Below, in pieces: positions 4,969 to 57,710 of a stretch of 64,000 nt of DNA. The stretch is from contig CAZGLZ010000006.1 in NCBI GenBank assembly GCA_964526245.1, forward strand, positions 2,215-66,214, given 5' to 3'. The stretch's first letter is position 1, and each line of letters starts with the position of its first letter. The stretch comes from an uncultured Chloracidobacterium sp. Its GTDB lineage: Bacteria; Acidobacteriota; Blastocatellia; Pyrinomonadales; Pyrinomonadaceae. Below the pieces are notes generated by a model. The model ran no database searches, was not told the origin of the DNA, and worked only from the letters and a program-made list of their open reading frames with translations. Position numbers and translations under genes: made by a program.

Positions 4969-7823
4969 TGCCGGCATCTCTCATTCAACCTGGAAAACTG
5001 ATAAACCTTCGCGGCCGCGACTGGGTCGTCATGCCGTCGGATGACCCTGAAAAGCTCCTTATTGTTAAGCCCCTTGGTGGCTCGGATGATGAGACAACGG
5101 GGGTGTACCTTCCGTTAGATGTTGACCATGATCGGCCTATCGATGCGAGATTTGACCCACCGTCGATTGCTGACATAGGAAGTATCGCTACGGCGAAACT
5201 CCTATACGATTCCGCCAGGCTTGCGTTTCGTAATGGTGCGGGTCCGTTCCGGTCTCTAGCAAAGCTTTCTTTCCGTCCACGTGCCTATCAGATAGTGCCG
5301 TTGATAATGGCCCTGCGGCAAGATAATGTTCGGCTTCTGATCGCCGATGACGTCGGCGTCGGTAAGACGGTTGAAGCTTTACTGATTGTCCGTGAACTTC
5401 TCGAACGAAGGAAGATCAAGCGATTTGCAGTTGTGTGCCTTCCACATCTTTGCGAACAATGGCAGTCTGAGATCCGCTCAAAACTTGACATCGAAGCGGT
5501 GATCATTAGGTCGAATACTCAGGCTCGATTAGATCGGCAAATTCAAGGTGATACAAGTGTTTATGACTACTATCCCTACCAGATCATTAGCATCGACTTC
5601 ATCAAGGCCGAAAATCGTAAGGATCTCTTCGTGGAGCAATGTCCGGGTTTAGTTGTCGTCGACGAGGCGCATACATGTGCTCGACCGTCCGGTGCTTCCG
5701 ATTCCCAACAGCAGCGTTTCGCGTTGTTGAGTCGCATTGCCAGGAAAGAGCGTCAGCATCTGGTATTGCTGACTGCGACCCCACACAGCGGTAAAGATGA
5801 CGAGTTTCGTTCGTTGCTCGGGCTTCTCGATCCGAAGTTTGAGGAACTGGATCTTCCGAGTTCGTCACAGCCTGAACGCCGAAGTCTTGCTAAACACTTC
5901 ATCCAGCGCAAGCGTGCCCATGTAGCAACCTATGTTGGTGAAGATACTCCTTTTCCCGAACGTGAGGCTTTCGAGTTGGCCTACGATCTAACGACACAGT
6001 ACGCCCACTTTTTTGACGAAATACTTGATTTCGCCCGAAAGATGGTTTCTGGCACTGCCGAAGGAAGAACAAAGCGGGTTCACTACTGGACCGCGCTTGC
6101 ACTTCTACGAGGCGTGATGTCTAGTCCCGCGGCTGGGGTAAAAATGCTGAACACGCGACTGGCTAATCTCGGCGAGGGTAGTGATTCGCCCGAGTCCGTG
6201 GTAGTCGAAGCTGGAAACCCCGTAGCCGATGTAGATTTTGGGTTTGACCCTGACGTTGAGCCAACTTCCGTAATTGAGAGCAGCATTTGGTCGGAGCCAC
6301 AACGCCGGGGGCTCAAGCGATTGGCCGATTCGCTTGATGGCCTGACCGGGCCTGAGCGGGATGGGAAGCTGAAAACGGCGGCCAAAACACTGAAAGGCTG
6401 GATCAACGAAGGATTTAACCCCGTCGTCTTTTGTCGTTACATTGAAACCGCAAAATACGTTGGCGAGCATCTTCGGGGCTTATTGCCAAATAACATTGAT
6501 GTTCAGACCGTAACGAGTGAGGATCCCGATGACGTGCGCAAGCAGCGAATAGCCGATATGGAGGGTTCCGGCCGGAGATTGCTCGTCGCTACCGATTGTT
6601 TGAGCGAAGGCATAAACCTGCAGGATCTTTTTACCGCAGTGATGCACTACGATCTGCCGTGGAATCCCAACCGGCTTGAGCAGCGTGAAGGTCGCGTGGA
6701 TCGTTTCGGTCAGCAGGCCCCGACTGTCAAGGCATGCCTGCTTTATGGGGCGGACAACCCTATCGATGCCGTCGTGCTTGAGGTGCTTTTGAGGAAAGTG
6801 CGGGAAATTAAGAAGGCGACCGGGTTCAACGTGCCGTTTCCCGAAGACTCACAAGGCATCCTCGACACAATCACCCAAGCTCTCCTGCTAAATCCGGATC
6901 GCAAGGTAAAGCGTAGCGTTGATCAGCTCACATTCGATTTCGGCGAGCTCCCCGAGGCCGAGGCGGAAAAGCAGAAGATTACGCACAAGATCGATCAGGC
7001 GGCGGAACGCGAAAAGGTTTCTCGTGCGATCTTTGCACAGCACGCAATTCATGCCGAGGAAATCGAGCAAGACTTGAAAGCCGTCGATGAAGCCATCGGC
7101 GATCCATCCGCGGTTCGGGACTTCGTTACTTCAACCCTGAACAATGTTTTCGGAGTCCAGATCATCGAAGAACGAGAAGGCTACGGCATTGTAACCGGGA
7201 ATCTTCCGGGACAGTTGCGAGACCTGTTGCCTGAGCCTCACCGAAGCAATGAGATTGCCAAGGTCAGCTTCGAGTCGCCGACTCCGGAATGGTATCACTA
7301 TCTCGGCCGCAATAATCGGTTCGTCGAACAACTATGTCAGATGTTGATGGCCAATACGCTCGCTCGGTACGAAAGGCGTGCCGCACGGGCTGCCGTAATC
7401 AAGACCACGCATGTTGAGACAAAAACAACGCTCCTCCTTTTCCGCTGTCGCAATGTGATTGAGGAAGGAAAAGGCGGCGGTCAGATCGTTGCTGAGGAGA
7501 TGCTGCTTTGGGGCTGGCGAGGCACACCAGATGCGAAAGAGTTTCTCGAACACGCCGAAGCAAAGGACCTTCTCACAAGCGCAAGAGCATCGAGCGATAT
7601 GTCTCCACAAGCTCGCGAGAGCTTTCTGGCGAACGAACTTGGTTTGCTTGATGCACTCGAAGACGATTTTGCTGTTATCGCCGAGGGCCAGTCGAAAAAG
7701 TTGGTTGAGGCACACGAACGTTTCAGTTCCCTGATGGACAGATCGAAGTTTCAGGTCGTTTATCCCGTGCTCCCGATGGATCTTCTCGGCATCTATGTTC
7801 TACTTCCGGAGGGTCCGAGATGA
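4965..7823 (+). CDS. SNF2-family helicase (DrmD-like)
   Basis: LLIADDVGVGKT (nt ~5332-5367), VVVDEAH (nt ~5652-5672), LLTATPHSG, helicase-C LLVATDCLSEGINLQ and NPNRLEQREGRVDRFGQ (nt ~6580-6714). ATGA overlaps at both ends. Confidence 0.85.
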   Translation: MMPASLIQPGKLINLRGRDWVVMPSDDPEKLLIVKPLGGSDDETTGVYLPLDVDHDRPIDARFDPPSIADIGSIATAKLLYDSARLAFRNGAGPFRSLAKLSFRPRAYQIVPLIMALRQDNVRLLIADDVGVGKTVEALLIVRELLERRKIKRFAVVCLPHLCEQWQSEIRSKLDIEAVIIRSNTQARLDRQIQGDTSVYDYYPYQIISIDFIKAENRKDLFVEQCPGLVVVDEAHTCARPSGASDSQQQRFALLSRIARKERQHLVLLTATPHSGKDDEFRSLLGLLDPKFEELDLPSSSQPERRSLAKHFIQRKRAHVATYVGEDTPFPEREAFELAYDLTTQYAHFFDEILDFARKMVSGTAEGRTKRVHYWTALALLRGVMSSPAAGVKMLNTRLANLGEGSDSPESVVVEAGNPVADVDFGFDPDVEPTSVIESSIWSEPQRRGLKRLADSLDGLTGPERDGKLKTAAKTLKGWINEGFNPVVFCRYIETAKYVGEHLRGLLPNNIDVQTVTSEDPDDVRKQRIADMEGSGRRLLVATDCLSEGINLQDLFTAVMHYDLPWNPNRLEQREGRVDRFGQQAPTVKACLLYGADNPIDAVVLEVLLRKVREIKKATGFNVPFPEDSQGILDTITQALLLNPDRKVKRSVDQLTFDFGELPEAEAEKQKITHKIDQAAEREKVSRAIFAQHAIHAEEIEQDLKAVDEAIGDPSAVRDFVTSTLNNVFGVQIIEEREGYGIVTGNLPGQLRDLLPEPHRSNEIAKVSFESPTPEWYHYLGRNNRFVEQLCQMLMANTLARYERRAARAAVIKTTHVETKTTLLLFRCRNVIEEGKGGGQIVAEEMLLWGWRGTPDAKEFLEHAEAKDLLTSARASSDMSPQARESFLANELGLLDALEDDFAVIAEGQSKKLVEAHERFSSLMDRSKFQVVYPVLPMDLLGIYVLLPEGPR

Positions 7824-10800
7824 ACTACCCGAGCATCCGGATAGAAGGTGCGATCCTTTCGCCCGATATACTTGAGCATCTTGTCGATGGTGCGAAAGGC
7901 CAGGGGCCAAAGGACTTCGGCTTTGAGTCGGGCACGAAGGTAAAAGATGAGATCGCTCGTGCATGGGCAGATGCTCAGGACTATTGGCGGATCTTCCAGC
8001 GGAAGCTCGCAACGGTAAAGGAAGGCACAGCCGCTACCACCGAAACGCGCCAGAACTGGATAATCCCGCTCCTTGGCCTTCTCAAGTATGAGGTCGAGTT
8101 TCAAAAAGCTGGTACTGAAATCCATGGCAGGAACTACGCGATTTCACATCGCATAACCAATCGCGCCAACACGCCGCTTCATATTGTCGGATACAACGAC
8201 CAGGCCGGGCTTGACCGAAAGTCGGCAGCGTCACGAATGTCCGCCCATGCCCTTGTCCAGCAATATCTTAATCTCTCCGATGAGCTTTACGGAATCGTCA
8301 CTAACGGGCGGGTAGTTCGCCTTCTCCGTGACAGTTCCCGACTGGTAAAACAGAGCTACCTTGAGTTCGACCTCGATCGTATCTTTACTGATGGCCTCTT
8401 CGCCGATTTCGCGATTCTATTTCGGCTGTTGCACGCCACGCGTTTGCCCTTAAAGGCAGAGGAAGCTGCCGAAAGCCTGATCGAAAAATACCACCAGGAT
8501 TCGCTCGATTCAGGCGCAAGAATTCGCGATGGACTTTCCGAGGCGGTTAAGGAAGCAATTCTGAATTTCGCCAATGGCTTTCTTTCCAATCCGGCAAACA
8601 CTCGGCTTTGCGAAGCGATCGAGGTGGGAATACTTACTCCCGATGATTACTATCGCAACCTTCTTCGCCTGATCTACCGGCTGCTCTTTCTGATGGTTAT
8701 AGAGGAGAGAGACCTGGTTTTTCCGTCGGATTCCGAAAACAGAGAAAGACTTCAGCACTTCCGAAGGATCTACCGAGACTATTACAGCGTTGGGAGACTC
8801 AGGCAGCTTGCCGAAAAGCGCTATCTCGCTGACAAGCGGCATCACGACCTATGGATGGCACTGGTATCCACCTTCAAGCTTTTCGAGGCAGATGGTCCCG
8901 GTGAGAAGCTAGGCATTAAGCCGCTTGCCGGCGATCTGTTTGGCCCGAGGGCGATCGAGGAGATCTTCGACGCTCGGCTCGGGAACGACGTACTTCTCGG
9001 CTGCCTGCGATCGCTCGGTTTATACGAGCACCCGGACACACGGCAGATGATCCGCGTAAATTACGGTGCTCTCAATGTTGAAGAATTCGGTTCCGTTTAC
9101 GAAGGTCTTCTCGAATACGAACCGGTGTTTGATCTATCCGGTTCAACTCCTCGCTTCGGCTTTGTCGAAGGCGACGAGCGTTCCCGTACCGGATCTCACT
9201 ACACACCTGACGAACTCGTCCAGCCCCTGATCAAGCACTCACTCGATTACCTGATCGAAGATTGTGTCCGTAGCCCGCACGTAAGTAAGGGCTCCTCCGA
9301 CAGCTCCCCTCCTTACGAAAGAGGGGTGGACGCCGAAGGCGGACGGGGTGGTTCTCCCACTACCGCAGAGCAACGCCTCCTAGATCTTCGCGTAGCAGAC
9401 ATAGCCTGCGGTTCCGGTCATATCTTGCTCGCCGCCGCGAGAAGAATTGCGACCGAGCTTGCCACCGTCCGCACCGGCGAAGAGCAGCCCTCGCCGACAG
9501 CTTACCGACAGGCACTCCGCGATGTTATCCGCAATTGCATTTACGGCGTTGACGTAAATCCCCTGGCAGTTGAGCTGTGTAAGGTCGCTCTTTGGCTTGA
9601 GGCTCACAATCCGGGCGAGCCGCTGAACTTTCTCGATCACCACATCAAATGCGGCAACGCGATCGTCGGTTTTGTCAGCAAGGAAGAAGTAGACCGTGGC
9701 GTTCCAGAAGAGGCGTTCGCCCGGATGCCGGACGACCACGCAGACTTTATCAAGGTGGTCAGAAAAAAGAACAAGGACGAGCGAAGAGAGCGGCAGCGTG
9801 TCTTGAACTTCACCGACGAGCGTCGCGGCGAAATCGCAAATGTGCTTGAGCGTTGGCGCGTGATTACAGCGATGCCGGAACGCTCGCCCGCTGAAATCGA
9901 TGTCAAGAAGGCGGCTTTCGAAAACTTCTCAACACAGGGTGCGGCTTATGAACTGGAAAAGCTCGCATCGGTGCCGGTAGCACAGTTTTTTATTCCGAAG
10001 GTGCCGGAGAATAGTTCTAAGCTGATGACCGACGCTGAGTTTCGCGACTACTGGTCCGGCGAGCGTAGACCGCAAAGCCAGTCTTTCGCGGCGGCCGAAG
10101 CCGTTGCGAGTGAGAAACGATTCTTTCATTGGTTTCTCGAGTTTCCTGGCGTGATGGAACGCGGCGGCTTCGATTGTATTCTTGGGAATCCGCCCTATCT
10201 TGGAAGCCAGGCATTGAGCGGCAATTTCGGCTATCCTTTCTGTCATTTTCTTAAATATGAATACGCACCGGCAGGTTTAAGCGACCTGATAGTTTATTTC
10301 CTCAGGCGTATATTTTGCCTTCTGCGCCCAAGCGGCTTCACTGCGTTCATCACGACAAATTCCATCAAAGATGGGGATAACAGACGCGACGGCCTGGATC
10401 AAGTCTTATCGACGGGCGGAACGATCAATATGGCGGTGCGTGCGATACGTTGGCCTGGTCGGGCAAATGTTGTTGTTTCGCAGTTGGCTATACACAAGGG
10501 GGACTGGATCGGTCCTCGACTACTCGACAACCGAGAAGTAGAAACAATTAATGCGTATTTTGAGGATAATCTACCGGAACCGGATCCAGTACCTTTGCAC
10601 CCCAACAAGAATAGAGTCTTTCAAGGGGTTATTTTCCTGGGCGAGGGATTCTTACTTTCCACCGAGGACGCAGATGCCTTGTTGAGATTAGATCCGAGAA
10701 ATCACGAGGTGATTTACCCGGTCATCAACAACAAAGAAATGAACGGTTCACCGGACCAAAGTTCGACTCGAAAAATTATAAACTTCCATAATTGGCCAAT

Positions 10801-11707
10801 AGAACGAGCTCAGACGTATTCAGAGCCCTTCAGAATTGTGGAAGAGAAGGTTCAACCGTTTCGAGCTACTCAAAATAGAGCGCGAAATCGGGACGTTTGG
10901 TGGGTCTACGCAGAGCATCGACCTGGATTGAATCGTGGGATTGCTCGTTTGCCATTTTGCTTCGCGGTCGGGCGCGTGACAAAACATCTGACCTTCTCGC
11001 GGGTGGCGACAAATTATGTTTTTTTGAACAACCTGTACATATTCACGACCTCACGATGGGACCTTTTTACTGTCGTCCAGAGTGCGATCCACGAAGTGTG
11101 GGCTCGGAATTATAGCATGACGTTGAAGCAGGATTTGCAGTATTCGCCATCGGACTGCTTCGAAACGTTCGCCTTTCCTGACGATCTTTGGAACGAAGAA
11201 AATGCCAAACTCGCTGAGATCGGCGAGCGTTATCACGAACACCGCAAACAGCTAATGCTGATGCTCTGGCTCGGCCTGACAAAGCTCTACAACCTTTTCC
11301 ATGATACGGAGCTATCCGTCGAAATGGTCGCCGATGTTAGCGGCAAAGACGAGGACATCGCCCGCGAAGGCTACGCTGTGCTCGTAGAACTCCGCCGCCT
11401 CCACGTCGAAATGGACAATGCCGTCCGCGACGCCTACGGCTGGCAGGACCTCGACCTCGGCCACGGCTTCCACCAGGTCGAAACCCTCCCCGAAAACGAC
11501 CGCACCCGCTACACCATCAGCCCCACCGCCCGCAAAGAAGTCCTAAAGCGTCTCCTCGCCCTAAACCACACCCGCGCCGCCGAGGAAGCAGCTCATGCCG
11601 CCGCCGCAAAACCGTTCAAAAAGAAAGGTGGCAAGAAATCGAAATCAGACCCGGCAACAGACGGCGACAACCCGCTTTTAGCGGCGGGACCGTTGTTTGA
11701 ACAATGA
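7820..11707 (+). CDS. Large gamma-class N6-adenine DNA methyltransferase (Eco57I/PglX/DrmMI-like), 1295 aa
   Basis: SAM-binding motif VADIACGSGHILL (nt ~9389-9425) and catalytic ILGNPPYLG (nt ~10181-10205). Start overlaps the SNF2 stop (ATGA). Confidence 0.85.
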   Translation: MNYPSIRIEGAILSPDILEHLVDGAKGQGPKDFGFESGTKVKDEIARAWADAQDYWRIFQRKLATVKEGTAATTETRQNWIIPLLGLLKYEVEFQKAGTEIHGRNYAISHRITNRANTPLHIVGYNDQAGLDRKSAASRMSAHALVQQYLNLSDELYGIVTNGRVVRLLRDSSRLVKQSYLEFDLDRIFTDGLFADFAILFRLLHATRLPLKAEEAAESLIEKYHQDSLDSGARIRDGLSEAVKEAILNFANGFLSNPANTRLCEAIEVGILTPDDYYRNLLRLIYRLLFLMVIEERDLVFPSDSENRERLQHFRRIYRDYYSVGRLRQLAEKRYLADKRHHDLWMALVSTFKLFEADGPGEKLGIKPLAGDLFGPRAIEEIFDARLGNDVLLGCLRSLGLYEHPDTRQMIRVNYGALNVEEFGSVYEGLLEYEPVFDLSGSTPRFGFVEGDERSRTGSHYTPDELVQPLIKHSLDYLIEDCVRSPHVSKGSSDSSPPYERGVDAEGGRGGSPTTAEQRLLDLRVADIACGSGHILLAAARRIATELATVRTGEEQPSPTAYRQALRDVIRNCIYGVDVNPLAVELCKVALWLEAHNPGEPLNFLDHHIKCGNAIVGFVSKEEVDRGVPEEAFARMPDDHADFIKVVRKKNKDERRERQRVLNFTDERRGEIANVLERWRVITAMPERSPAEIDVKKAAFENFSTQGAAYELEKLASVPVAQFFIPKVPENSSKLMTDAEFRDYWSGERRPQSQSFAAAEAVASEKRFFHWFLEFPGVMERGGFDCILGNPPYLGSQALSGNFGYPFCHFLKYEYAPAGLSDLIVYFLRRIFCLLRPSGFTAFITTNSIKDGDNRRDGLDQVLSTGGTINMAVRAIRWPGRANVVVSQLAIHKGDWIGPRLLDNREVETINAYFEDNLPEPDPVPLHPNKNRVFQGVIFLGEGFLLSTEDADALLRLDPRNHEVIYPVINNKEMNGSPDQSSTRKIINFHNWPIERAQTYSEPFRIVEEKVQPFRATQNRARNRDVWWVYAEHRPGLNRGIARLPFCFAVGRVTKHLTFSRVATNYVFLNNLYIFTTSRWDLFTVVQSAIHEVWARNYSMTLKQDLQYSPSDCFETFAFPDDLWNEENAKLAEIGERYHEHRKQLMLMLWLGLTKLYNLFHDTELSVEMVADVSGKDEDIAREGYAVLVELRRLHVEMDNAVRDAYGWQDLDLGHGFHQVETLPENDRTRYTISPTARKEVLKRLLALNHTRAAEEAAHAAAAKPFKKKGGKKSKSDPATDGDNPLLAAGPLFEQ
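9275..9365. repeat. Short palindrome-rich REP/MITE-like segment lying in frame inside the methylase ORF
   Basis: Hairpin cccctc(9306-9311)/gagggg(9321-9326) and gtgg(9348-9351)/ccac(9357-9360). The +1 frame reads PLLTKEGWTPKADGVVLP. The methylase frame reads SSPPYERGVDAEGGRGGSPTT, just upstream of motif I. Confidence 0.35.
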
Positions 11708-11717
11708 GATTAGTATG
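11468..11717 (+). repeat. Direct repeat copy A: functional 3' end of the methylase plus spacer up to the next ATG
   Basis: Shares the identical 21-mer gaaaacgaccgcacccgctac (11492-11512) with 14873-14893. Flanking similarity runs through gccctaaaccac and the GPLF-encoding tail. Confidence 0.75.
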
Positions 11718-12416
11718 AAGATAGCTGCGATTAATCACGAAACTTGGTACAAGGAACACATAAGCGTTTTCGAGGTGCCAATACTTGAATCCTACATCGA
11801 CTCTGTTGAAAAACAGGTTCAAATTGGATTTGACACATGGAAGGACAGATTGAAATCCTCAGGGCACTTTGGCGATCCTGATACGGAATATTATCAGGAG
11901 ATCAGTGCCGTTGACGGTCTTGATGATTCAACCTTTCATCTTCCCTCCATATTCGATGAGTACTTTCCTCAGCTTCAACGACAGAGTGCCCTGATCGTCC
12001 TTTATTCTTTTCTAGAACGTGAGCTACTACATCTATGCGAGCTTTGTCGTAAATCAAACAACGCTCCGCTCAAAGCAAAAGACCTTTGTAGGGACGGTAG
12101 CGACATTGCCCGCTGCCAGATGTATCTCGAAAAAGTGATAGGTTTAGGAGTTACAAGAGACGATGCAAAATGGCAGGAAATCGACCACGGAATACGAATC
12201 GTCCGCAATCAAATAGTTCACCACGAAGGCAAAGTGCCGGATACCAACTCCAGAGACTTTAACAAGCTTGAAAACCACGTTAAGCAGCAAAACAATTCGG
12301 TTTCAATAGACAAAATATCTTCATCTATCGTTCTCAACAATGGCTACCTTAAATACACACTCGATACGTTCAACGAGTTCTTTAAGACTTTGGATGATGC
12401 CTTGTCAAACCCTTGA
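11715..12416 (+). CDS. HEPN-domain protein (Rx4H), hypothetical RNase
   Basis: IRIVRNQIVHHEG with RNQIVH at nt 12204-12221. Predicted all-helical protein. ATG at 11715 is the point where homology to repeat copy B ends. The ORF track start at 11697 is TTG. Confidence 0.55.
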   Translation: MKIAAINHETWYKEHISVFEVPILESYIDSVEKQVQIGFDTWKDRLKSSGHFGDPDTEYYQEISAVDGLDDSTFHLPSIFDEYFPQLQRQSALIVLYSFLERELLHLCELCRKSNNAPLKAKDLCRDGSDIARCQMYLEKVIGLGVTRDDAKWQEIDHGIRIVRNQIVHHEGKVPDTNSRDFNKLENHVKQQNNSVSIDKISSSIVLNNGYLKYTLDTFNEFFKTLDDALSNP

Positions 12417-12418
12417 AA

Positions 12419-12455
12419 AACGTCGCAACGCTTTAGGTTTGCGGCGTTATTCTTC
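12419..12455 (+). terminator. Hairpin after the HEPN gene, possible intrinsic terminator
   Basis: aacgtcgcaa (12419-12428) pairs with ttgcggcgtt (12439-12448) with one G-U pair, followed by attcttcc. Confidence 0.4.
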
Positions 12456-12599
12456 CTTGAGTTCAGGTCAGCACCGTGCGGACCGCGAAGGCCACAAACG
12501 GAGGGCACTTTGATCAGGGTCGGGCAAACATGGGGCCGTCGTTTTAGGTAATTATACGGTGCCGAAGGATAACATGCTTAAGTAGGAGGGAGTTCAACT

Positions 12600-12935
12600 G
12601 TGGAACAGATTCATAATGATGACAATCGTAAATTGACGTCATCCGAAGAAAAGCTCGCTGGGATTGCGGATCGAGGCGAAGGAGAACGACGGGACGAATG
12701 GCACCTTGATCCACCGGACTCCTGCGACTATTGTCACCGAAGCCTCTCAAATTCGATCTTCTTCGTCGATGGTAAGGTGAAGGGCAGTTTTCAGTGGGGA
12801 AATATGTGTGCAGAATGTTTCTTTACCTACGGCGACGCGATTCGGTGGGGAGCGGGCCAACTCTACCAACAGGTCGGGTCGAATGAGTGGCTAATGGTCG
12901 GTGGCTTCCCGACGGACGAGCCGGAACCGTTTTAA
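12600..12935 (+). CDS. Small Cys4 (zinc-ribbon-like) protein, hypothetical
   Basis: GTG start preceded by a strong SD taggaggga (12581-12589). CDYC...(about 30 aa)...CAEC pattern. Confidence 0.5.
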   Translation: MEQIHNDDNRKLTSSEEKLAGIADRGEGERRDEWHLDPPDSCDYCHRSLSNSIFFVDGKVKGSFQWGNMCAECFFTYGDAIRWGAGQLYQQVGSNEWLMVGGFPTDEPEPF

Positions 12936-12985
12936 CCCATATAGATCCTCGCCCGGAAGCCCGAGAGATTTTCATTAACTACTCT

Positions 12986-14539
12986 ATGTCTGAACCTGTA
13001 ATTGACCCAATTGATTTTCCACAGTCTGAACTTGTTATCGGGCTCGTCGCCCCAGTTGGTACCGACACGCGGTTTATTGTCGATACGATTTCCCAGCGTC
13101 TCGATCGATTCAATTACACGCGTGAACCTTTGAAGTTAAGCGAGTATCTGAAGACCCTAGACTTGGGTGTTCAGATCGATGAAAATACAGCTTTCCGACG
13201 CGTCGTCACGCTCATGGATGCCGGCGACGCATTGCGAAAAAAAGTTGGCGGCGGAGGTGAGAATATTGACGGTTCGGGGGACGCTCTTGCTCGAATTGCC
13301 GTTTCTGAGATTCACAAACGGAGGCCAATCGATACAGCGTCAAACGAAAAGAACGAATCACGCATCGCAAGACCCAAAACAGCTTATATTCTTGACTCGC
13401 TTAAGCATCCAGACGAAATTGTTTTGTTGCGACGAATTTATGGAGATGGGTTCCTCTTGATTAGTATCTCTTCCTCTCGACAGACCAGGAAAGAGAATTT
13501 GGAAAGACGCGGTATGTCAGGTGACGAAGCCGATACCTTAATCAGCCGTGATGAGAATGAGAGCGACCCTTTGGGACAGAAAACTCGAGACGCATTTCAC
13601 TTAGCTGACGCATTTATCGACGCCAATAATCTTGAAACTAGTCGTTCGCAGATTGAGAGAATACTCGACATTCTGTTCGGTGCTCGGTATAAAACGCCAA
13701 CGTTTGCGGAATACGCAATGTTCCTTGCTTTTGCATCAGCCTTTCGATCAGCAGATCTTTCAAGGCAGGTTGGCGCGGCAATTGCATCCAAAACAAATGA
13801 AATTCTTGCGGTCGGTTGTAATGACGTCCCTCGGTTCGGAGGAGGCTTATACTCTAGTGACGACGCCGAAGATCACCGGGACCATAAGCTCGGCGTTGAC
13901 CCGAATGTTCAGAAGCGGAACGAGATCTTCAGCAACATCGCGCAAATGCTGAAGGATAAATATCCAATGGCAGTTGACGGAAAGTCTGTGGAGGAGTTGA
14001 CGCAGGCGGTGAAAAGGGATTTGAAGGCAAGCGTTTTGTCGAGTCTTACTGAGTTTGGACGAACGGTTCATGCCGAAATGGATGCGATTGTAAGTTGTGC
14101 TAGGAGCGGAATCAGTGTTCGCGGGGGTACGCTATATACAACAACATTTCCGTGCCATAATTGTGCCCGTCATATCATTGCTGCTGGTATCGATACTGTT
14201 GTCTACGTTGAACCGTATCCTAAGAGCCAGGCTGGAGAATTGCATGAGGATTCGATAGACTTGGAAACGCAGTCTGCGAATAAGGTAACTTTTAAGCCAT
14301 TTGTTGGAATCGGATCTCGGCGCTTCATGGACTTGTTTTCGATGGGAATGAGTTCAGGCTATCCAATTGAAAGAAAGTCCAACGAATCCGGTGAAAAATT
14401 AGATTGGACGCCTGAGGCCGGTCGCCTAAGGGTTCCAATGTTACCCACGTCATATATCGAACGCGAACGCCTATCAATACAGAAACTGGACAAACTTGAG
14501 GAGGAAAGTGATGTCGATAAAGAAACGGAAGGACACTGA
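12986..14539 (+). CDS. AvcD/DcdV-like anti-phage deoxycytidylate/dCTP deaminase (N-terminal P-loop-kinase-like domain plus C-terminal CMP/dCMP zinc deaminase)
   Basis: Deaminase zinc motifs HAEMDAI (nt ~14069) and PCHNCARHI (nt ~14150). N-terminal LVIGLVAPVGTD glycine-rich loop. Size ~517 aa from ATG 12986; an alternative GTG at 12887 gives 550 aa. Confidence 0.7.
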   Translation: MSEPVIDPIDFPQSELVIGLVAPVGTDTRFIVDTISQRLDRFNYTREPLKLSEYLKTLDLGVQIDENTAFRRVVTLMDAGDALRKKVGGGGENIDGSGDALARIAVSEIHKRRPIDTASNEKNESRIARPKTAYILDSLKHPDEIVLLRRIYGDGFLLISISSSRQTRKENLERRGMSGDEADTLISRDENESDPLGQKTRDAFHLADAFIDANNLETSRSQIERILDILFGARYKTPTFAEYAMFLAFASAFRSADLSRQVGAAIASKTNEILAVGCNDVPRFGGGLYSSDDAEDHRDHKLGVDPNVQKRNEIFSNIAQMLKDKYPMAVDGKSVEELTQAVKRDLKASVLSSLTEFGRTVHAEMDAIVSCARSGISVRGGTLYTTTFPCHNCARHIIAAGIDTVVYVEPYPKSQAGELHEDSIDLETQSANKVTFKPFVGIGSRRFMDLFSMGMSSGYPIERKSNESGEKLDWTPEAGRLRVPMLPTSYIERERLSIQKLDKLEEESDVDKETEGH

Positions 14540-14717
14540 GGAGAACCGTGCTTTTTGGGCATTTGTTGAAGAGACTTCAAGAAGTGTTGAGGAACATTTT
14601 CCCGCTTGGAAACGAGGCGATGGGTTTCAGGAGCCTTCCGAAGGTATAAATGGCAACAGCTCACAAATTCTTTCTTCGGCAAATAAAGATCCTCAGACGG
14701 GCATGAAATGTGATTAG
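14511..14717 (+). CDS. Small hypothetical protein (68 aa) overlapping the deaminase 3' end
   Basis: ATG 14511 preceded by gaggagg (14498-14504). Overlaps the last 29 nt of the deaminase ORF. Confidence 0.35.
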   Translation: MSIKKRKDTEENRAFWAFVEETSRSVEEHFPAWKRGDGFQEPSEGINGNSSQILSSANKDPQTGMKCD

Positions 14718-14779
14718 TTCGTATTGGGTTTTAACCATTTAAGATTGTGATGTACTCTCTCCGATCGTCGAATCTTTGT

Positions 14780-15101
14780 CGCTGGTTTAACTTATTCCAA
14801 TCTCAAGATCTGCGACGCTGTTGGATCGGCCCGAGCCTTTGCTTTTGTTTCCAGGAGGCTCAAGCCCTCCGTGAAAACGACCGCACCCGCTACTCCATCA
14901 GCTCCAATGTCCCCCCAAAAGTCCTAAAACACCTCCCAGCCCTAAACCACCGACGCGCCGCCGAAGAAGCCGCCACCGGCAAAACCAAGAAGCCAAAAGC
15001 CAAGAAATCAAAAACAAAGAGCCAAACCCCGAAACCAGGCACCGACGACGACCCGCCCCCCCCCTCCTAGCCTCCGGTCCTTTGTTTAAGCATGATGAAT
15101 A
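14780..15101 (+). pseudogene. Decayed 3' remnant of a second DrmMI-like methylase (direct repeat copy B)
   Basis: Reads FQEAQALRENDRTRYSIS..VLKHLPALNHRRAAEEAA against FHQVETLPENDRTRYTIS..VLKRLLALNHTRAAEEAA in the intact gene. Upstream CDAVGS and the tail SGPLFKHDE* lie in other frames, indicating frameshifts. There is no upstream ORF body. Confidence 0.7.
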
Positions 15102-15103
15102 GT

Positions 15104-15739
15104 ATGTGGTGTAACAATTTGAGACAAAGCAATTTGAGCGTTGCGAACTATAACAACCTCCATCCCGAAGGACAGAGGTTAATTCGCAGTTGGTTTGACC
15201 GCTCCTGGCAATCGTACGAAGGGAATGACGATGCTTTCGAAGCATTCATTTTTTTGTGGATTTCGTTCAATGGTTGGGCGACGTGTATTACCGGTCTATT
15301 TCGAGACGCAAGTATTATCGATTCTGTCGCTAACAACCAGGTAATTGCGACTGAGTTCATCCGGTTAGTCCGCAACGACCGTGAGTTCGCTGAAAACGTC
15401 AGAGAACTTTGCGACATGCTGCCGATTTTTGATCCGCGAAGACTGCCGAATAGAAACTGGGGATTGTTTTCGCCTGATCAAGAAGGTCGCCGGCGGCAAA
15501 TACAACAATATCTGCAAACTGGGACGAAATCTTTTAACCCCCCGTGCTGGAAAGATCACGTAGACGCCGGTGGTCGAATGCCCACGGATTGGCCGCATGT
15601 CTTAAAGGCGATCTACCAGATCCGCTGTAACCTCTTCCACGGGCAGAAAACCGCTTTTCAAGAACTTGATAGGAGACTGGTCGATCTCGCCTTCAAGATT
15701 CTTCACCGGTTCGTGTCCGACGGTGGCTACCTTAACTAA
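15104..15739 (+). CDS. Second, unrelated HEPN-like protein (Rx4H)
   Basis: IYQIRCNLFHGQK with RCNLFH at nt 15623-15640. Occupies the same position relative to the methylase tail remnant as the first HEPN gene. Confidence 0.5.
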   Translation: MWCNNLRQSNLSVANYNNLHPEGQRLIRSWFDRSWQSYEGNDDAFEAFIFLWISFNGWATCITGLFRDASIIDSVANNQVIATEFIRLVRNDREFAENVRELCDMLPIFDPRRLPNRNWGLFSPDQEGRRRQIQQYLQTGTKSFNPPCWKDHVDAGGRMPTDWPHVLKAIYQIRCNLFHGQKTAFQELDRRLVDLAFKILHRFVSDGGYLN

Positions 15740-15811
15740 AGGATAACCGATACTGAGGCATGGCAAACTCGTCGAATCAGCAAAGCTTTGTCGGTGATAT
15801 GAAGAACTTTC

Positions 15812-17821
15812 ATGATTGAAATTGGTGACATACTGAACGGGATTCGCGAAGAGATTCGTGCAACGCCGGACTATGTCGCGTTTACGATAAAACGGAGTAT
15901 CCGCGAGGGCTCAATCTGGAAGATCATTCTGTCCTCGGATGAAAAGAGCCTAAATGAACTAGATGAAGCACTGGAAGGGGCACTCGTCTGGTGGCCAGGC
16001 AATCCGCCCGGAACGGCCGAGGTCCTTTCGGTAGTTTCGGAAGAGTCGCAACTGAACCTCCGATTTGCGACCCAAACGCCCCCTGAGAACGGAAAGATTC
16101 TCCGCGTTTACCTACCGCAGTATCTAAATAAGCTCGAAGAACTTTGGTCGGATGACATTTGGGCAAATCGGTGCTCCGAATGGCTTAAACGGGTAAGGGC
16201 CACGAACGCGAAAGATGACGTTATTTCCCTGAAGACCTCCAGCTTTCGGTGGCTCCGAGCGTGTCAGAAGAGGGCGTTTGCCCTTCCTGCTTTCAAGGTG
16301 AGTTTCCTGCATGGCCCCCCAGGCACGGGAAAGACGCGAACACTTGGGGCGTTGGTGGCTCAGTTTCTAAGTACGTTCCAAAACGCGCGTGTTCTTTTGC
16401 TTTCGACGACGAATGTCGCAGTCGATGAAGCGATCACTGCTGTCGATTCGGCGTTGCTCGAAGCGCCCGCGTTGAATGGCGGCCCGCGAATTCGGATGAA
16501 CGAGTGCAAGCGGATTGGGAACCAATTTGTTGCTACAAAATACAAGGGACGCCAACACTTGCTTCCAAAGCAGGAACCCGAAATCCTCGAGCAACTAATC
16601 CTCTTAGAGGCCTCACGGCCACGCGAAGAAGATGTCCAAGCCTACGCCACTTGGAAGGAAAGGACCGAAACTTTACGCGCTCAAATGCGTTCCAAGGCAA
16701 TCAACACATTCAGGCATTCGCGGCTTATCGCGATGACGACAACGCTTGCGGTTTATAGCTTCGATGACCTTCGCGAGCACTACCCGGCTGATCTGATCGT
16801 ATTCGATGAATCGAGCCAAGTTGGGCTTGCCCACGCTCTGGCACTTGCCCCGCTCGGAAAGCGGGCTCTTTTTACAGGGGATCCCAATCAGCTTGCCCCG
16901 ATATGTCGGTCGAAGGTGCAGGATTCTGCGGAGTGGCTTGGTCAATCCATGTTCTCCCTCCAAAATGACTTTGAGGAGGCAACGTGTTTCCTTGACGAAC
17001 AGTCCCGAATGACAGAGCCGATCTGTCATGTTGTAAGCAAAACGTTTTATCAAGGAAGGCTAAAGGTGGCTTCGGGCTGCGACACGAAATGGAAACTAGC
17101 GCGGGACGTTTCGTCCTCGCATGCCGAGAAAAATGCCGTAAGCATCCACCGTGTCAAAAAAGAGGGCCAGTATTCTAAGAAGTACGGCGGCTATATAAGG
17201 TATGAATCGGCAGAGCTGATCTCCGCTCTTGTTGGTCGGCTATCAAGTGAACAAGATGCAGCCGATATTCTTGTCTTGACCCCATTTCGCGCTCAGCGTC
17301 GGTTGATAAAAACTTTCTTAAAGAATGGAACGATTAGGGGTGTCAGAGTCAGTACCGTGCACCGTGCCCAGGGAAGCGAATGTCACACGGTTATTTTTGA
17401 CCCCGTCTCAGGAAGCAATAATTTTCTAAATACTGAAGATGCACCTCGGCTAATTAACGTAGCACTGAGTCGAGCAAAGGCCAGACTTGTCGTATTCCTG
17501 TCACCTGACGACTTGGTGAACCCTACACTACAGAAGTTCAATGCGGTAGCTGCGATTCTACCCGGCATTATGCAGAATGACGGCTCGAGGGTGCCGAGAA
17601 TTCAGCAGCATCGCCATATTTCAAGAATACTCGACGAGAACTTTCCGCAGAACGCAATCAACAAAGAAATAACAATACCTTCGAAGAATGGCCTGATGTT
17701 TGGGCGAATTTTGGAGGTTTCCTCCGATGGCGAGAGCTTCAAAATGCAAGTGTACGAAACCGGGGAAGTTAAGAAATTTATCACAGAATTTGTTCGGAAA
17801 AATGCGAAAGGACGTATATAA
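15812..17821 (+). CDS. Superfamily 1 Upf1/DNA2-like helicase (AAA_11/AAA_12 type, COG1112-like)
   Basis: FLHGPPGTGKT, LLLSTTNVAVDE, LIVFDESSQ, FTGDPNQL, VSTVHRAQGSE, NVALSRAK. The first ~150 aa and last ~80 aa are unassigned. Confidence 0.85.
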   Translation: MIEIGDILNGIREEIRATPDYVAFTIKRSIREGSIWKIILSSDEKSLNELDEALEGALVWWPGNPPGTAEVLSVVSEESQLNLRFATQTPPENGKILRVYLPQYLNKLEELWSDDIWANRCSEWLKRVRATNAKDDVISLKTSSFRWLRACQKRAFALPAFKVSFLHGPPGTGKTRTLGALVAQFLSTFQNARVLLLSTTNVAVDEAITAVDSALLEAPALNGGPRIRMNECKRIGNQFVATKYKGRQHLLPKQEPEILEQLILLEASRPREEDVQAYATWKERTETLRAQMRSKAINTFRHSRLIAMTTTLAVYSFDDLREHYPADLIVFDESSQVGLAHALALAPLGKRALFTGDPNQLAPICRSKVQDSAEWLGQSMFSLQNDFEEATCFLDEQSRMTEPICHVVSKTFYQGRLKVASGCDTKWKLARDVSSSHAEKNAVSIHRVKKEGQYSKKYGGYIRYESAELISALVGRLSSEQDAADILVLTPFRAQRRLIKTFLKNGTIRGVRVSTVHRAQGSECHTVIFDPVSGSNNFLNTEDAPRLINVALSRAKARLVVFLSPDDLVNPTLQKFNAVAAILPGIMQNDGSRVPRIQQHRHISRILDENFPQNAINKEITIPSKNGLMFGRILEVSSDGESFKMQVYETGEVKKFITEFVRKNAKGRI

Positions 17822-57624: not shown

Positions 57625-57710
57625 GGAGGGGTAGCCTAATTGGTAAGGCAGTAGTCTTGAAAACTACCGCGGGAAACCGCTTGCAGGTTCGAGTCCTGTC
57701 CCCTCCGCCA
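57625..57710 (+). tRNA. tRNA-Ser (anticodon TGA)
   Basis: Acceptor GGAGGGG/CCCCTCC. Anticodon stem GTAGT/ACTAC with loop CTTGAAA. Long variable arm CGCGG-GAAA-CCGC. T-arm GCAGG-TTCGAGT-CCTGT. Encoded CCA. Confidence 0.9.

What the first reader, a model, noticed from the sequence alone, without database searches (positions are those of the whole stretch)
11715..15739. Two sequence-unrelated HEPN (Rx4H) genes occupy the same slot directly after a DrmMI-like methylase tail
The gene after the live methylase tail (11715-12416) has RNQIVH at 12204-12221. The gene after the dead tail (15104-15739) has RCNLFH at 15623-15640. Both motifs sit in the C-terminal third of small helical proteins, as expected for HEPN RNases. 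By eye the two proteins are otherwise not alignable. Independent retention of a HEPN gene in the same position in two diverged copies suggests HEPN is an integral component of this helicase/SNF2/methylase family. HEPN is not part of the published DISARM parts list.
Basis: partly seen in the sequence, partly recalled or inferred. Interest (0 to 1): 0.7.

Follow-up and report, generated by a model that had tools for sequence, protein, structure and literature searches.

The report
Swappable RNase-like genes behind ARMADA methylase
Two unrelated small genes with the catalytic signature of HEPN RNases take turns in the position just after the DNA methylase of an ARMADA type I anti-phage operon, but a survey shows they are rare, exchangeable add-ons of the kind often attached to methylase-based defence systems, not a core part of the system.

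Summary
Gene A (11715-12416) follows the live methylase, and gene B (15104-15739) follows a 250-bp frameshifted remnant of a second methylase tail. Both carry an Rx4H motif that is conserved across their families, and the two proteins are not alignable.

- **The system.** The helicase/SNF2/methylase core is ARMADA type I (Bell et al. 2025), not canonical DISARM.
- **Gene A is HEPN.** It matches PADLOC RTasHEPN at 6e-6. In its superfamily, 26 of 150 members hit Pfam RiboL-PSP-HEPN.
- **Gene B is HEPN-like by motif only.** It has no Pfam match and no Foldseek match. Its only link is a roughly 30-residue match to the Dazbog protein DzbB.
- **"Same slot" is stronger than claimed.** In relatives the order is methylase, gene B, small Zn-ribbon gene. 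In the window gene A sits between the same conserved flanks.
- **"Integral component" fails.** Among 80 ARMADA-I loci from other species, one has gene B and none has gene A. The downstream gene is otherwise heterogeneous.

Both families also occur after other methylase and restriction genes and next to DUF262 proteins. The best reading is that they are interchangeable, co-oriented accessory RNase-type effectors. This is the known "embedded defence gene" theme of PrrC and HEC-08. Interest is moderate.

The parts
1..4968 (+). YprA-family DEAD/DEAH helicase with a DUF1998/MZB domain. This is the first gene of the ARMADA type I core. Its 5' end is cut by the window edge.
   Evidence: Pfam: DEAD 2.5e-24, Helicase_C, and MZB 0.0023 at residues 1420-1486. 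PADLOC: DruE 3.4e-80. Homologues of 1718-1722 aa occur in L006, L008 and L010.
4965..7823 (+). SNF2 / BrxHII-like helicase (ArmA/DrmD-like).
   Evidence: Pfam: SNF2-rel_dom and Helicase_C. PADLOC: DpdE 4e-180, DrmD 1e-80, BrxHII 2e-51.
7820..11707 (+). PglX/DrmMI-like N6-adenine DNA methyltransferase, 1295 aa. This is the 'live' methylase. The tail region that is duplicated downstream is 11468-11707.
   Evidence: Pfam: Eco57I 3e-23, MmeI_Mtase, MmeI_TRD. PADLOC: DrmMI 5.7e-215. It is 77% identical to the methylase of L014.
11715..12416 (+). Gene A, a 233-aa RiboL-PSP-type HEPN protein. It starts 7 nt after the methylase stop.
   Evidence: PADLOC RTasHEPN 6e-6 over residues 145-231. Six of 7 close homologues and 26 of 150 superfamily members hit PF18735 HEPN_RiboL-PSP, best 4e-8. 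The superfamily has 2278 representatives.
12204..12221 (+). RNQIVH, the Rx4H motif of gene A (R164...H169).
   Evidence: Invariant in 7 close homologues. R164 and H169 are conserved in at least 90% of 150 relatives.
12600..12935 (+). Small CxxC...CxxC (Zn-ribbon-like) protein. This is the conserved right-hand flank of the slot. The conserved part is 12708-12932.
   Evidence: 67-71% aa identity to the gene immediately after gene B in L008, L009, L011, L012 and L014. 73% nt identity to L008 10740-11018. It has no Pfam or PADLOC family.
12887..14539 (+). dCTP-deaminase-type defence gene. It is a neighbouring cargo gene and not part of the slot. Its true start may be the ATG near 12986.
   Evidence: PADLOC dCTPase 1.1e-166. 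Pfam dCMP_cyt_deam_1 4e-17.
14849..15103 (+). Dead methylase tail. It is a 5'-truncated, frameshifted remnant that corresponds to about the last 85 codons of an ARMADA-I methylase.
   Evidence: 78% nt identity to 11468-11592. Alignment to the live tail and to the L014, L010 and L006 tails is. tblastn E=2e-9. The poly-C run at about 15059-15067 shifts the frame.
15104..15739 (+). Gene B, a 211-aa helical protein of an uncharacterised family. It has an HEPN-like motif and a motif-level match to DzbB.
   Evidence: 238 relatives, none with a Pfam domain. 74 of 121 hit PADLOC DzbB, best 8.4e-6. AF2 pLDDT is 87. Orthologues follow an intact methylase in L008, L010 and L012.
15623..15640 (+). RCNLFH, the Rx4H motif of gene B, within Y-x-[IV]-R-C-N-L-F-H-G-x-K.
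   Evidence: R, N, L, F, H, G and K are invariant in 121 sequences.
15812..17821 (+). Upf1/IGHMBP2-like SF1 helicase (MkoA-like), 72 nt after gene B. Its relation to gene B is unknown.
   Evidence: Pfam: AAA_12 7e-28 and AAA_11. PADLOC: MkoA 1.3e-51. NCBIfam: IGHMBP2 family 1e-29. It is not found next to gene B relatives elsewhere.

Best explanation
**What it is.** The locus is an ARMADA type I anti-phage operon (YprA-like helicase, BrxHII-like SNF2, PglX-like methylase). Its 3' end carries an exchangeable accessory slot.

**What fills the slot.** In this Acidobacteria-like subclade the slot lies between the methylase stop and a small Zn-ribbon gene. It is filled by one of two unrelated small helical proteins with an invariant Rx4H motif:
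- Gene A is a RiboL-PSP-type HEPN protein.
- Gene B belongs to an undescribed family with a DzbB-like motif.

**How the window came to hold both.** One cassette displaced the other. A 250-bp remnant of a second methylase tail, still joined to its gene B, was left downstream.

**Inferred function.** Both proteins are latent, metal-independent RNases expressed with the methylase. They would act as a second, abortive-infection layer when the DNA-targeting core is evaded or when foreign or modified DNA is sensed. Known parallels are PrrC in type I R-M loci, the HEPN candidate HEC-08 embedded in Hma systems, and the RelE domain of ArmD in ARMADA type II.

**Status.** They are optional riders, not core components.

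**Shown versus inferred.** Shown: gene order, flanks, conservation, family links and rarity. Inferred: RNase activity, co-transcription, the trigger and the abortive outcome.
For: **Core identity**
- Domain content and gene order match the published definition of ARMADA type I.
- The same order occurs in 63 of 73 related loci.

**The slot**
- L008, L010 and L012 have methylase, gene B, Zn-ribbon gene.
- The window has the homologous methylase 3' end (74% nt) and Zn-ribbon gene (73% nt), with non-homologous gene A in between.
- The junction of the dead tail and gene B is collinear with the L008 junction of methylase and gene B.

**Coupling**
- Gene A starts 7 nt after the methylase stop.
- Gene B homologues lie a short distance downstream of the methylase stop, 13-17 nt in the gene calls. 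A longer ORF reading overlaps the methylase end by 4-8 nt.

**Catalytic signature**
- Invariant R and H.
- Gene A is linked to HEPN profiles.
- Gene B is linked to DzbB, the non-DUF262 partner of the abortive Dazbog system.

**Exchangeable-rider behaviour**
- Gene A relatives follow a different PLD-SNF2 + MmeI-type methylase system (L002-L005). They sit two genes further out in L006 and have no methylase in L001.
- Gene B relatives follow an MmeI-type methylase (L113, L115), a DUF1156 methylase (L094, L111), a type I hsdS (L105) and hsdR (L122). They are the last gene of other defence operons on plasmids.

**Rarity**
- 1 of 80 ARMADA-I loci has gene B and 0 of 80 have gene A.

**Literature**
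- Embedded genes in Hma, BREX, DISARM and type I R-M systems are mostly autonomous defence genes. They include HEPN, RelE and GmrSD-like proteins, and they are co-oriented with the host system in 96.7% of cases.
Against: - No experiment or structural match shows nuclease activity.
- Foldseek found nothing for either model in PDB (best E 0.84 for gene A, 1.3 for gene B) or for gene B in BFVD (best E 0.59).
- Gene B has no HEPN profile match. Its similarity to the gene A superfamily is confined to the motif helix (hhalign score about 19, P about 0.04).
- Promoter and terminator scans gave nothing usable, so co-transcription is inferred from spacing only.
- The conserved Zn-ribbon gene next to both A and B could mean the slot belongs to a functional module rather than to a neutral insertion hot spot.
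- Gene A lies next to a methylase in 5 of 6 contexts, which could point to a specific functional tie.
Confidence: 0.55

Rival explanations
1. In this subclade the HEPN-like protein is a genuine fourth subunit of the ARMADA-I machine. It is physically or functionally coupled to the methylase, for example as a PrrC-like guard held inactive by the methylase complex. Gene A and gene B would then be analogous replacements that do the same job.
For: - One gene displaces the other in place, between conserved flanks, which suggests functional equivalence.
- Both genes sit close behind the methylase on the same strand.
- Gene A relatives sit directly after an MmeI/Eco57I-type methylase in two different system types.
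- Gene B relatives sit directly after four different kinds of methylase or R-M gene.
- ARMADA type II has an obligatory fourth protein with a RelE-like RNase domain.
Against: - 79 of 80 related ARMADA-I loci lack both families.
- In the closest gene A relative, two other genes separate it from the methylase.
- Both families also occur with no methylase nearby (L001, L013, L097, L119).
- Fifteen loci instead have a methylase extension plus an LmuB-like ATPase.
Confidence: 0.25
2. Gene B, and possibly gene A, is not a nuclease. The conserved R/H helix would serve ligand or nucleic-acid binding, or protein-protein contact. Examples are a sensor or adaptor for DUF262-type modified-DNA readers, or a regulator of methylase expression.
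For: - There is no HEPN profile hit in 121 gene B relatives.
- There is no structural neighbour for a confident model.
- Gene B recurs next to GmrSD_N/DUF262 proteins in 7 loci and resembles part of DzbB, whose biochemical role is unknown.
- Some HEPN-fold proteins are non-catalytic. This point is from general knowledge and was not tested here.
Against: - R-x4-H followed by G-x-K is invariant over 121 sequences that share as little as about 26-30% identity with gene B. This is the pattern of a catalytic site.
- The best local profile alignment to a bona fide HEPN superfamily places R on R and H on H.
- The neighbourhoods are defence-type throughout.
Confidence: 0.15
3. The juxtaposition is an accident of a crowded defence island. 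On this view the two genes are unrelated passengers and the shared motif is a coincidence.
For: - The region is packed with independent defence genes, including a dCTP deaminase and a MkoA-like helicase.
- R.{4,6}H strings are common in random ORFs.
Against: - The motifs are family-invariant and not incidental.
- The same adjacency of methylase and gene B occurs in at least three other assemblies.
- Both families recur next to methylases and DUF262 genes elsewhere.
- The flanks are conserved around the swap.
Confidence: 0.05

Closest known systems
ARMADA type I (disARM-related Antiviral Defense Array; Bell et al., bioRxiv 10.1101/2025.09.15.676423)
   Same: - A YprA-like helicase with DUF1998 comes first, then a BrxHII-like SNF2 helicase, then a PglX-like methylase, all co-directional.
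- The same order is found in 63 of 73 related loci.
   Different: - The published type I parts list has three genes.
- Neither the main text nor the three supplementary files held as text mention HEPN.
- Here a fourth gene (HEPN-like) and a fifth (Zn-ribbon) are appended.
ARMADA type II ArmD (RelE-like RNase domain fused to a GajB-like UvrD helicase)
   Same: It is a predicted RNase module placed after the SNF2/methylase/YprA core of a sister system, and it is required for defence.
   Different: - The fold is different (RelE, not HEPN).
- It is fused to a helicase and almost always present.
- Gene A and gene B are stand-alone, rare and interchangeable.
DISARM class 1 (DrmA, DrmB, DrmC, DrmD, DrmMI)
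   Same: It shares an SNF2 helicase (DrmD-like) and an adenine methylase (DrmMI 5.7e-215).
   Different: - DUF1998 is fused to the helicase rather than being a separate DrmB.
- No PLD DrmC is visible.
- The helicase scores best with DruE models.
RiboL-PSP-HEPN (Pfam PF18735) and other stand-alone HEPN RNases
   Same: - Gene A has the Rx4H motif at the equivalent profile position (144-179 of 191).
- 26 of 150 superfamily members reach E down to 4e-8.
   Different: - The window protein itself scores only E=0.48.
- It has an extra N-terminal helix and hairpin.
- No solved structure matches it.
Dazbog DzbB (partner of the DUF262 protein DzbA; abortive system triggered by a phage cytosine methylase)
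   Same: - 74 of 121 gene B relatives match the C-terminal region of the DzbB model around the RCNLFHG motif.
- Gene B relatives pair with DUF262 proteins in 7 loci.
   Different: - The match covers about 30 of 341 profile positions.
- The gene order is reversed.
- There is no DUF262 gene in the window.
PrrC in type I R-M loci, and HEC-08 (HEPN) embedded in Hma systems (Payne et al., bioRxiv 10.1101/2024.01.29.577857)
   Same: - These are small RNase-type defence genes, co-oriented inside or at the edge of methylase-based systems. HEC-08 defence needs the Rx4-6H histidine.
- Gene B relatives occur between a DUF1156 methylase and a DUF499 ATPase, and after hsdS and hsdR.
   Different: - No sequence relationship to either was detected.
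- Gene A and gene B are appended after the last core gene rather than placed between core genes.

Membership tests
ARMADA type I | YprA-family DExH helicase with a DUF1998 module | tested here: met
   DEAD and Helicase_C domains are present. MZB/DUF1998 scores 0.0023, which is below the Pfam cut-off. PADLOC DruE scores 3.4e-80.
ARMADA type I | BrxHII/RapA-like SNF2 helicase plus PglX-like methylase, in the order YprA first, then SNF2, then methylase | tested here: met
   The published order is described. 63 of 73 homologous loci share it.
ARMADA type I | C-terminal Vsr-type nuclease on the YprA homologue, and placement in the ARMADA clade of the YprA tree | not tested
   There is no Vsr hit at E<=0.1 in Pfam for residues after 1486. 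No phylogeny was made.
DISARM class 1 | Separate DrmA and DrmB (DUF1998) proteins plus the PLD nuclease DrmC | tested here: not met
   DUF1998 lies inside the helicase ORF. No PLD gene lies between 1 and 18 kb. The region upstream of the window is unseen.
HEPN superfamily (gene A) | Conserved Rx4-6H motif | tested here: met
   R164 and H169 are invariant in 7 homologues and conserved in at least 90% of 150 relatives.
HEPN superfamily (gene A) | Profile match to a curated HEPN family | tested here: met
   PADLOC RTasHEPN 6e-6. PF18735 is hit by 6 of 7 close homologues and 26 of 150 relatives, best 4e-8, and HEPN_Cthe2314 and HepT-like are also hit. The window protein alone is below threshold.
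HEPN superfamily (gene A) | Helical-bundle fold similar to solved HEPN structures | tested here: inconclusive
   The AF2 model has pLDDT 74.8. The best Foldseek PDB hit is E 0.84 and no HEPN entry appears.
HEPN superfamily (gene B) | Conserved Rx4-6H motif | tested here: met
   R178 and H183 are invariant in 121 sequences, within RCNLFHGxK.
HEPN superfamily (gene B) | Profile match to a curated HEPN family | tested here: not met
   No HEPN family appears for 121 members at E<=1. One member hits PADLOC CARF_HEPN at 0.0057. hhalign against the gene A superfamily aligns the motif only, with probability 1-3%.
HEPN superfamily (gene B) | Helical-bundle fold similar to solved HEPN structures | tested here: not met
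   The AF2 model is confident (pLDDT 87.1, pTM 0.86). Even so, the best Foldseek E is 1.3 in PDB and 0.59 in BFVD. Foldseek is weak on all-helical proteins, so this does not exclude HEPN.
HEPN superfamily (both) | Metal-independent RNase activity that depends on R and H | not testable with these tools
   This needs biochemistry.
Dazbog (DzbA + DzbB) | DzbB-like protein encoded next to a DUF262 (DzbA) protein | tested here: not met
   Gene B matches only DzbB profile positions 294-322 of 341, at E 0.017. The window has no DUF262 homologue. Seven metagenome relatives do pair with GmrSD_N.

The most novel reading that the evidence does not exclude
**Claim.** ARMADA systems in general have an RNA-targeting arm. 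In type II it is the RelE domain of ArmD. In some type I operons it would be a stand-alone HEPN or HEPN-like protein wired to the PglX-like methylase. The methylase-bearing complex would license or restrain an RNase, so that a nominally direct, DNA-targeting system can switch to abortive infection.

**Gene B.** It would also define a new HEPN-like catalytic fold family shared with the Dazbog effector DzbB.

**Testability.** The in-place swap of gene A for gene B between conserved flanks would be a natural experiment showing functional equivalence.
Probability: 0.15. Interest if true: 0.65.

Novelty: new variant of a known kind. Interest (0 to 1): 0.4.

Why it matters
- **ARMADA.** The system was described only in 2025, and its type I form has not been dissected. 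A natural, exchangeable RNase-like rider at its 3' end gives a concrete handle on whether methylase-based direct defences are backed by abortive RNases.
- **Gene B family.** At least 238 proteins have no Pfam model and no structural neighbour, yet carry an invariant RCNLFHGxK site and a link to the unexplained Dazbog partner DzbB. This makes the family a reasonable target for biochemistry.
- **For annotation.** The practical lesson is negative. HEPN should not be added to the core parts list of this system family.

Tried and rejected
1. **Sequence searches of both proteins and their family profiles against PDB.** Nothing at E<0.1.
2. **Foldseek of both AF2 models against PDB, and of gene B against BFVD.** Nothing significant.
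3. **Idea: the ~180-aa C-terminal extensions on 19 methylase homologues are fused gene B domains, and the ~670-aa gene after them (15 loci) is the window's SF1 helicase.** Rejected. Neither the A3 HMM nor phmmer of the helicase hits them. The extensions lack a conserved Rx4H, and the downstream protein is LmuB-like.
4. **Idea: the ~190-aa gene after gene A in L002/L004 or L001 is a conserved partner that is also present in the window.** Rejected. The L001 protein is unrelated, and tblastn against the window finds nothing.
5. **Direct homology between gene A and gene B.** Only a motif-helix alignment was found. The short collinear DNA repeats D3 and D4 are treated as chance.
6. **Promoter and terminator scan.** Fewer promoter-like sites than in shuffles, so it is uninformative about operon structure.
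7. **Source organism.** The cluster look-up gave no names.
8. **Supplementary files of the ARMADA preprint.** No mention of HEPN, RiboL or Dazbog.
Full report
**Anatomy.** Eight co-directional ORFs fill 1-17821 on the + strand.
- 1-4968: a DEAD/Helicase_C protein with a weak MZB/DUF1998 match and strong DruE-type PADLOC hits. Its 5' end is cut by the window.
- 4965-7823: an SNF2 helicase (DrmD/BrxHII/DpdE-like).
- 7820-11707: a 1295-aa Eco57I/MmeI-type methylase (PADLOC DrmMI 5.7e-215).
- 11715-12416: gene A.
- 12600-12935: a 111-aa CxxC...CxxC ORF.
- 12887-14539: a dCTP-deaminase defence gene (PADLOC 1e-166).
- 15104-15739: gene B.
- 15812-17821: an SF1 helicase (MkoA-like 1e-51).

**Checking the observation.**
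- The motif coordinates are exact.
- The dead tail is a real remnant. 14849-14973 is 78% identical to 11468-11592, and tblastn gives E=2e-9.
- The alignment runs on to the start of gene B. The terminal LLAxGPLF peptide is recoverable in a different frame after a poly-C run.
- Nothing upstream of 14849 resembles the methylase.
- Gene A and gene B are not alignable by BLASTP or by profile comparison.

**Gene A.**
- Seven close homologues keep R164, N165 and H169 invariant.
- The window protein hits PADLOC RTasHEPN at 6e-6 over residues 145-231.
- Six of the 7 close homologues touch Pfam HEPN_RiboL-PSP weakly.
- An exhaustive profile search found 2278 cluster representatives, nearly all about 230 aa.
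- Of the best 150, 26 hit HEPN_RiboL-PSP (best 4e-8), 2 hit HEPN_Cthe2314 and 1 hits HepT-like. R164 and H169 are conserved in at least 90%.
- I accept gene A as a HEPN protein, although the AF2 model (pLDDT 74.8) found no structural neighbour.

**Gene B.**
- The family has at least 238 members, none with a Pfam domain.
- R178, N180, L181, F182, H183, G184 and K186 are invariant in 121 sequences.
- The AF2 model is confident (pLDDT 87, pTM 0.86) and all-helical, with the motif at the end of the penultimate helix. Foldseek nevertheless found nothing in PDB or BFVD.
- The only database link is to PADLOC DzbB. 74 of 121 members hit it (best 8.4e-6), always around the motif. For the window protein this is residues 172-199 against profile positions 294-322 of 341.
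- DzbB is the partner of the DUF262 protein DzbA in Dazbog. Dazbog is an abortive system triggered by a phage cytosine methylase.
- Profile-profile comparison with the gene A superfamily always picks the same local alignment, W-x11-R-x4-H on W-x11-R-x4-H. The score is about 19 and P about 0.04 at full length.
- HEPN membership of gene B is therefore plausible but unproven.

**What the system is.** The gene order (YprA-like helicase, then BrxHII-like SNF2, then PglX-like methylase) is the published definition of ARMADA type I. DISARM class 1 would need a separate DrmB and a PLD DrmC, and neither is seen here. [quoted passage not shown] The ARMADA preprint does not mention HEPN in its text or in its held supplements.

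**The slot.**
- Gene B orthologues (55-57% identical) sit directly after intact 1267-1274-aa methylases of complete YprA-SNF2-methylase operons in an Acidobacteria MAG and in two other assemblies.
- There, gene B is followed by a small gene that is 67-71% identical to the window's 111-aa ORF. In the window, that ORF follows gene A.
- blastn shows three collinear blocks:

| Window | L008 | Content | nt identity |
|---|---|---|---|
| 10775-11592 | 9067-9884 | methylase 3' end | 74% |
| 12654-12932 | 10740-11018 | Zn-ribbon gene | 73% |
| 14848-15695 | 9759-10592 | tail plus gene B | 64% |

- Gene A therefore occupies, between conserved flanks, the place that gene B holds in relatives. This is a non-homologous displacement in place.
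- The remnant tail plus gene B further downstream is more diverged. It may come from a second ARMADA-I locus.
- In the closest gene A relative (78% identical; L006/L007), two further genes lie between the methylase and gene A. The junction is evidently an insertion-prone site.

**Is HEPN integral to the family?**
- I fetched 80 loci with full-length homologues (44-77% identity) of the methylase from species-representative genomes.
- 63 of 73 loci show YprA-SNF2-methylase.
- The immediately downstream ORF is heterogeneous across 62 non-redundant cases:
  - one cluster of 15 LmuB/DUF2326-like ATPases, always behind a methylase with a 160-200-aa C-terminal extension that has no Rx4H;
  - two gene B sequences;
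  - the window's gene A;
  - singletons such as KAP NTPase, AbiLi-like ATPase, SIR2, reverse transcriptase, RhuM, a kinase, a patatin and transposases.
- HMMs of both families were searched against every ORF within 10 kb in these 80 loci. They found only the one gene B already known.

**Where else the two families live.**
- Gene A relatives:
  - They follow a PLD-SNF2 helicase plus MmeI-type methylase in L002-L005, with a DUF262-HNH protein one or two genes downstream.
  - One relative has no methylase nearby.
- Gene B relatives in 71 metagenome loci lie:
  - after an MmeI-type methylase and before a 587-aa GmrSD_N protein (L113, L115), with GmrSD_N directly downstream in 7 loci;
  - between a DUF1156 methylase and a DUF499 ATPase (L094, L111);
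  - after type I hsdS (L105) and hsdR (L122);
  - after a UvrD-like helicase (L119), and before an nSTAND3 NTPase (L097).
- On plasmids, gene B relatives are the last gene of defence-type operons and are annotated as hypothetical.
- This matches the "embedded defence gene" pattern of Payne et al. Genes nested in Hma, BREX, DISARM and type I R-M systems are co-oriented in 96.7% of cases. They are often autonomous defences, including PrrC, BrxU/GmrSD-like proteins, a RelE protein and the HEPN protein HEC-08, whose defence needs the motif histidine.

**Conclusion.**
- The most likely reading is that gene A and gene B are interchangeable accessory effectors riding on the 3' end of an ARMADA type I operon. 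Gene A is a HEPN protein and gene B is HEPN-like.
- They probably act as latent RNases that provide an abortive back-up layer.
- The gene order, flanks, conservation, family links and rarity are shown. RNase activity, co-transcription and the trigger are inferred.
- The subclade-restricted "true fourth subunit" model remains possible at about 0.25. A deletion experiment would decide it.

Noticed in passing
L018, L020, L035, L037, L047, L048, L052, L054, L055, L061, L064, L068, L070, L084, L087 (methylase end at about 14270-14340 in locus coordinates, and the next gene): Fifteen of 62 non-redundant ARMADA-I loci have a 160-200-aa C-terminal extension on the PglX-like methylase. The extensions fall into at least three unrelated sequence types and have no conserved Rx4H. 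Each is followed, at -23 to +12 nt, by a 650-690-aa LmuB/DUF2326-like ATPase. This looks like a recurrent four-part ARMADA-I variant.
   Followed up: partly
window 12600-12935: A small CxxC...CxxC protein with no Pfam or PADLOC family. It is 67-71% identical to the gene right after gene B in L008, L009, L011, L012 and L014. It follows either gene A or gene B, and its function is unknown.
   Followed up: partly
window 12887-14539: A dCTP-deaminase-type anti-phage gene (PADLOC dCTPase 1.1e-166) sits between the gene A cassette and the dead methylase tail. Its annotated GTG start overlaps the Zn-ribbon ORF by 49 nt, and an ATG near 12986 may be the true start.
   Followed up: no
window 15812-17821: An Upf1/IGHMBP2-like SF1 helicase (PADLOC MkoA 1.3e-51; NCBIfam PLuB helicase-like 7e-25) lies directly after gene B. 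No homologue is found next to gene B relatives elsewhere.
   Followed up: partly
L107, L113, L115, L123, L124, L125, L149 (gene directly after the gene B relative): Gene B relatives are followed within 4-85 nt by a 412-587-aa protein that forms one cluster. The L113 member is GmrSD_N/DUF262 (1e-31). This is a Dazbog-like pair in reversed gene order.
   Followed up: partly
L094 3131-3808 and L111 5971-6633: A gene B relative sits between a DUF1156 methylase (1022-1029 aa) and a DUF499 ATPase (1107-1120 aa). This is the kind of position where Payne et al. found Hma-embedded defence candidates.
   Followed up: partly
L006/L007 8034-9996: In the closest relative of the window locus, two genes of 362 and 258 aa with no recorded Pfam hit are inserted between the methylase and the gene A homologue.
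   Followed up: no
L002-L004 (about 2382-11833 in L002): This is a different system. A PLD-SNF2 helicase (1121 aa), an MmeI-type methylase (about 1110 aa), a gene A relative, a 190-aa protein and a DUF262-HNH protein (464 aa) are conserved across three assemblies.
   Followed up: partly
window 15059-15067: A run of nine C in the dead tail coincides with the frame shift that separates the RAAEEAA-containing frame from the terminal LLASGPLF frame.
   Followed up: yes
window 57625-57710: tRNA-Ser(tga) is the only tRNA in the window. Genes switch to the minus strand from about 23 kb onward, and cumulative GC skew turns there.
   Followed up: no
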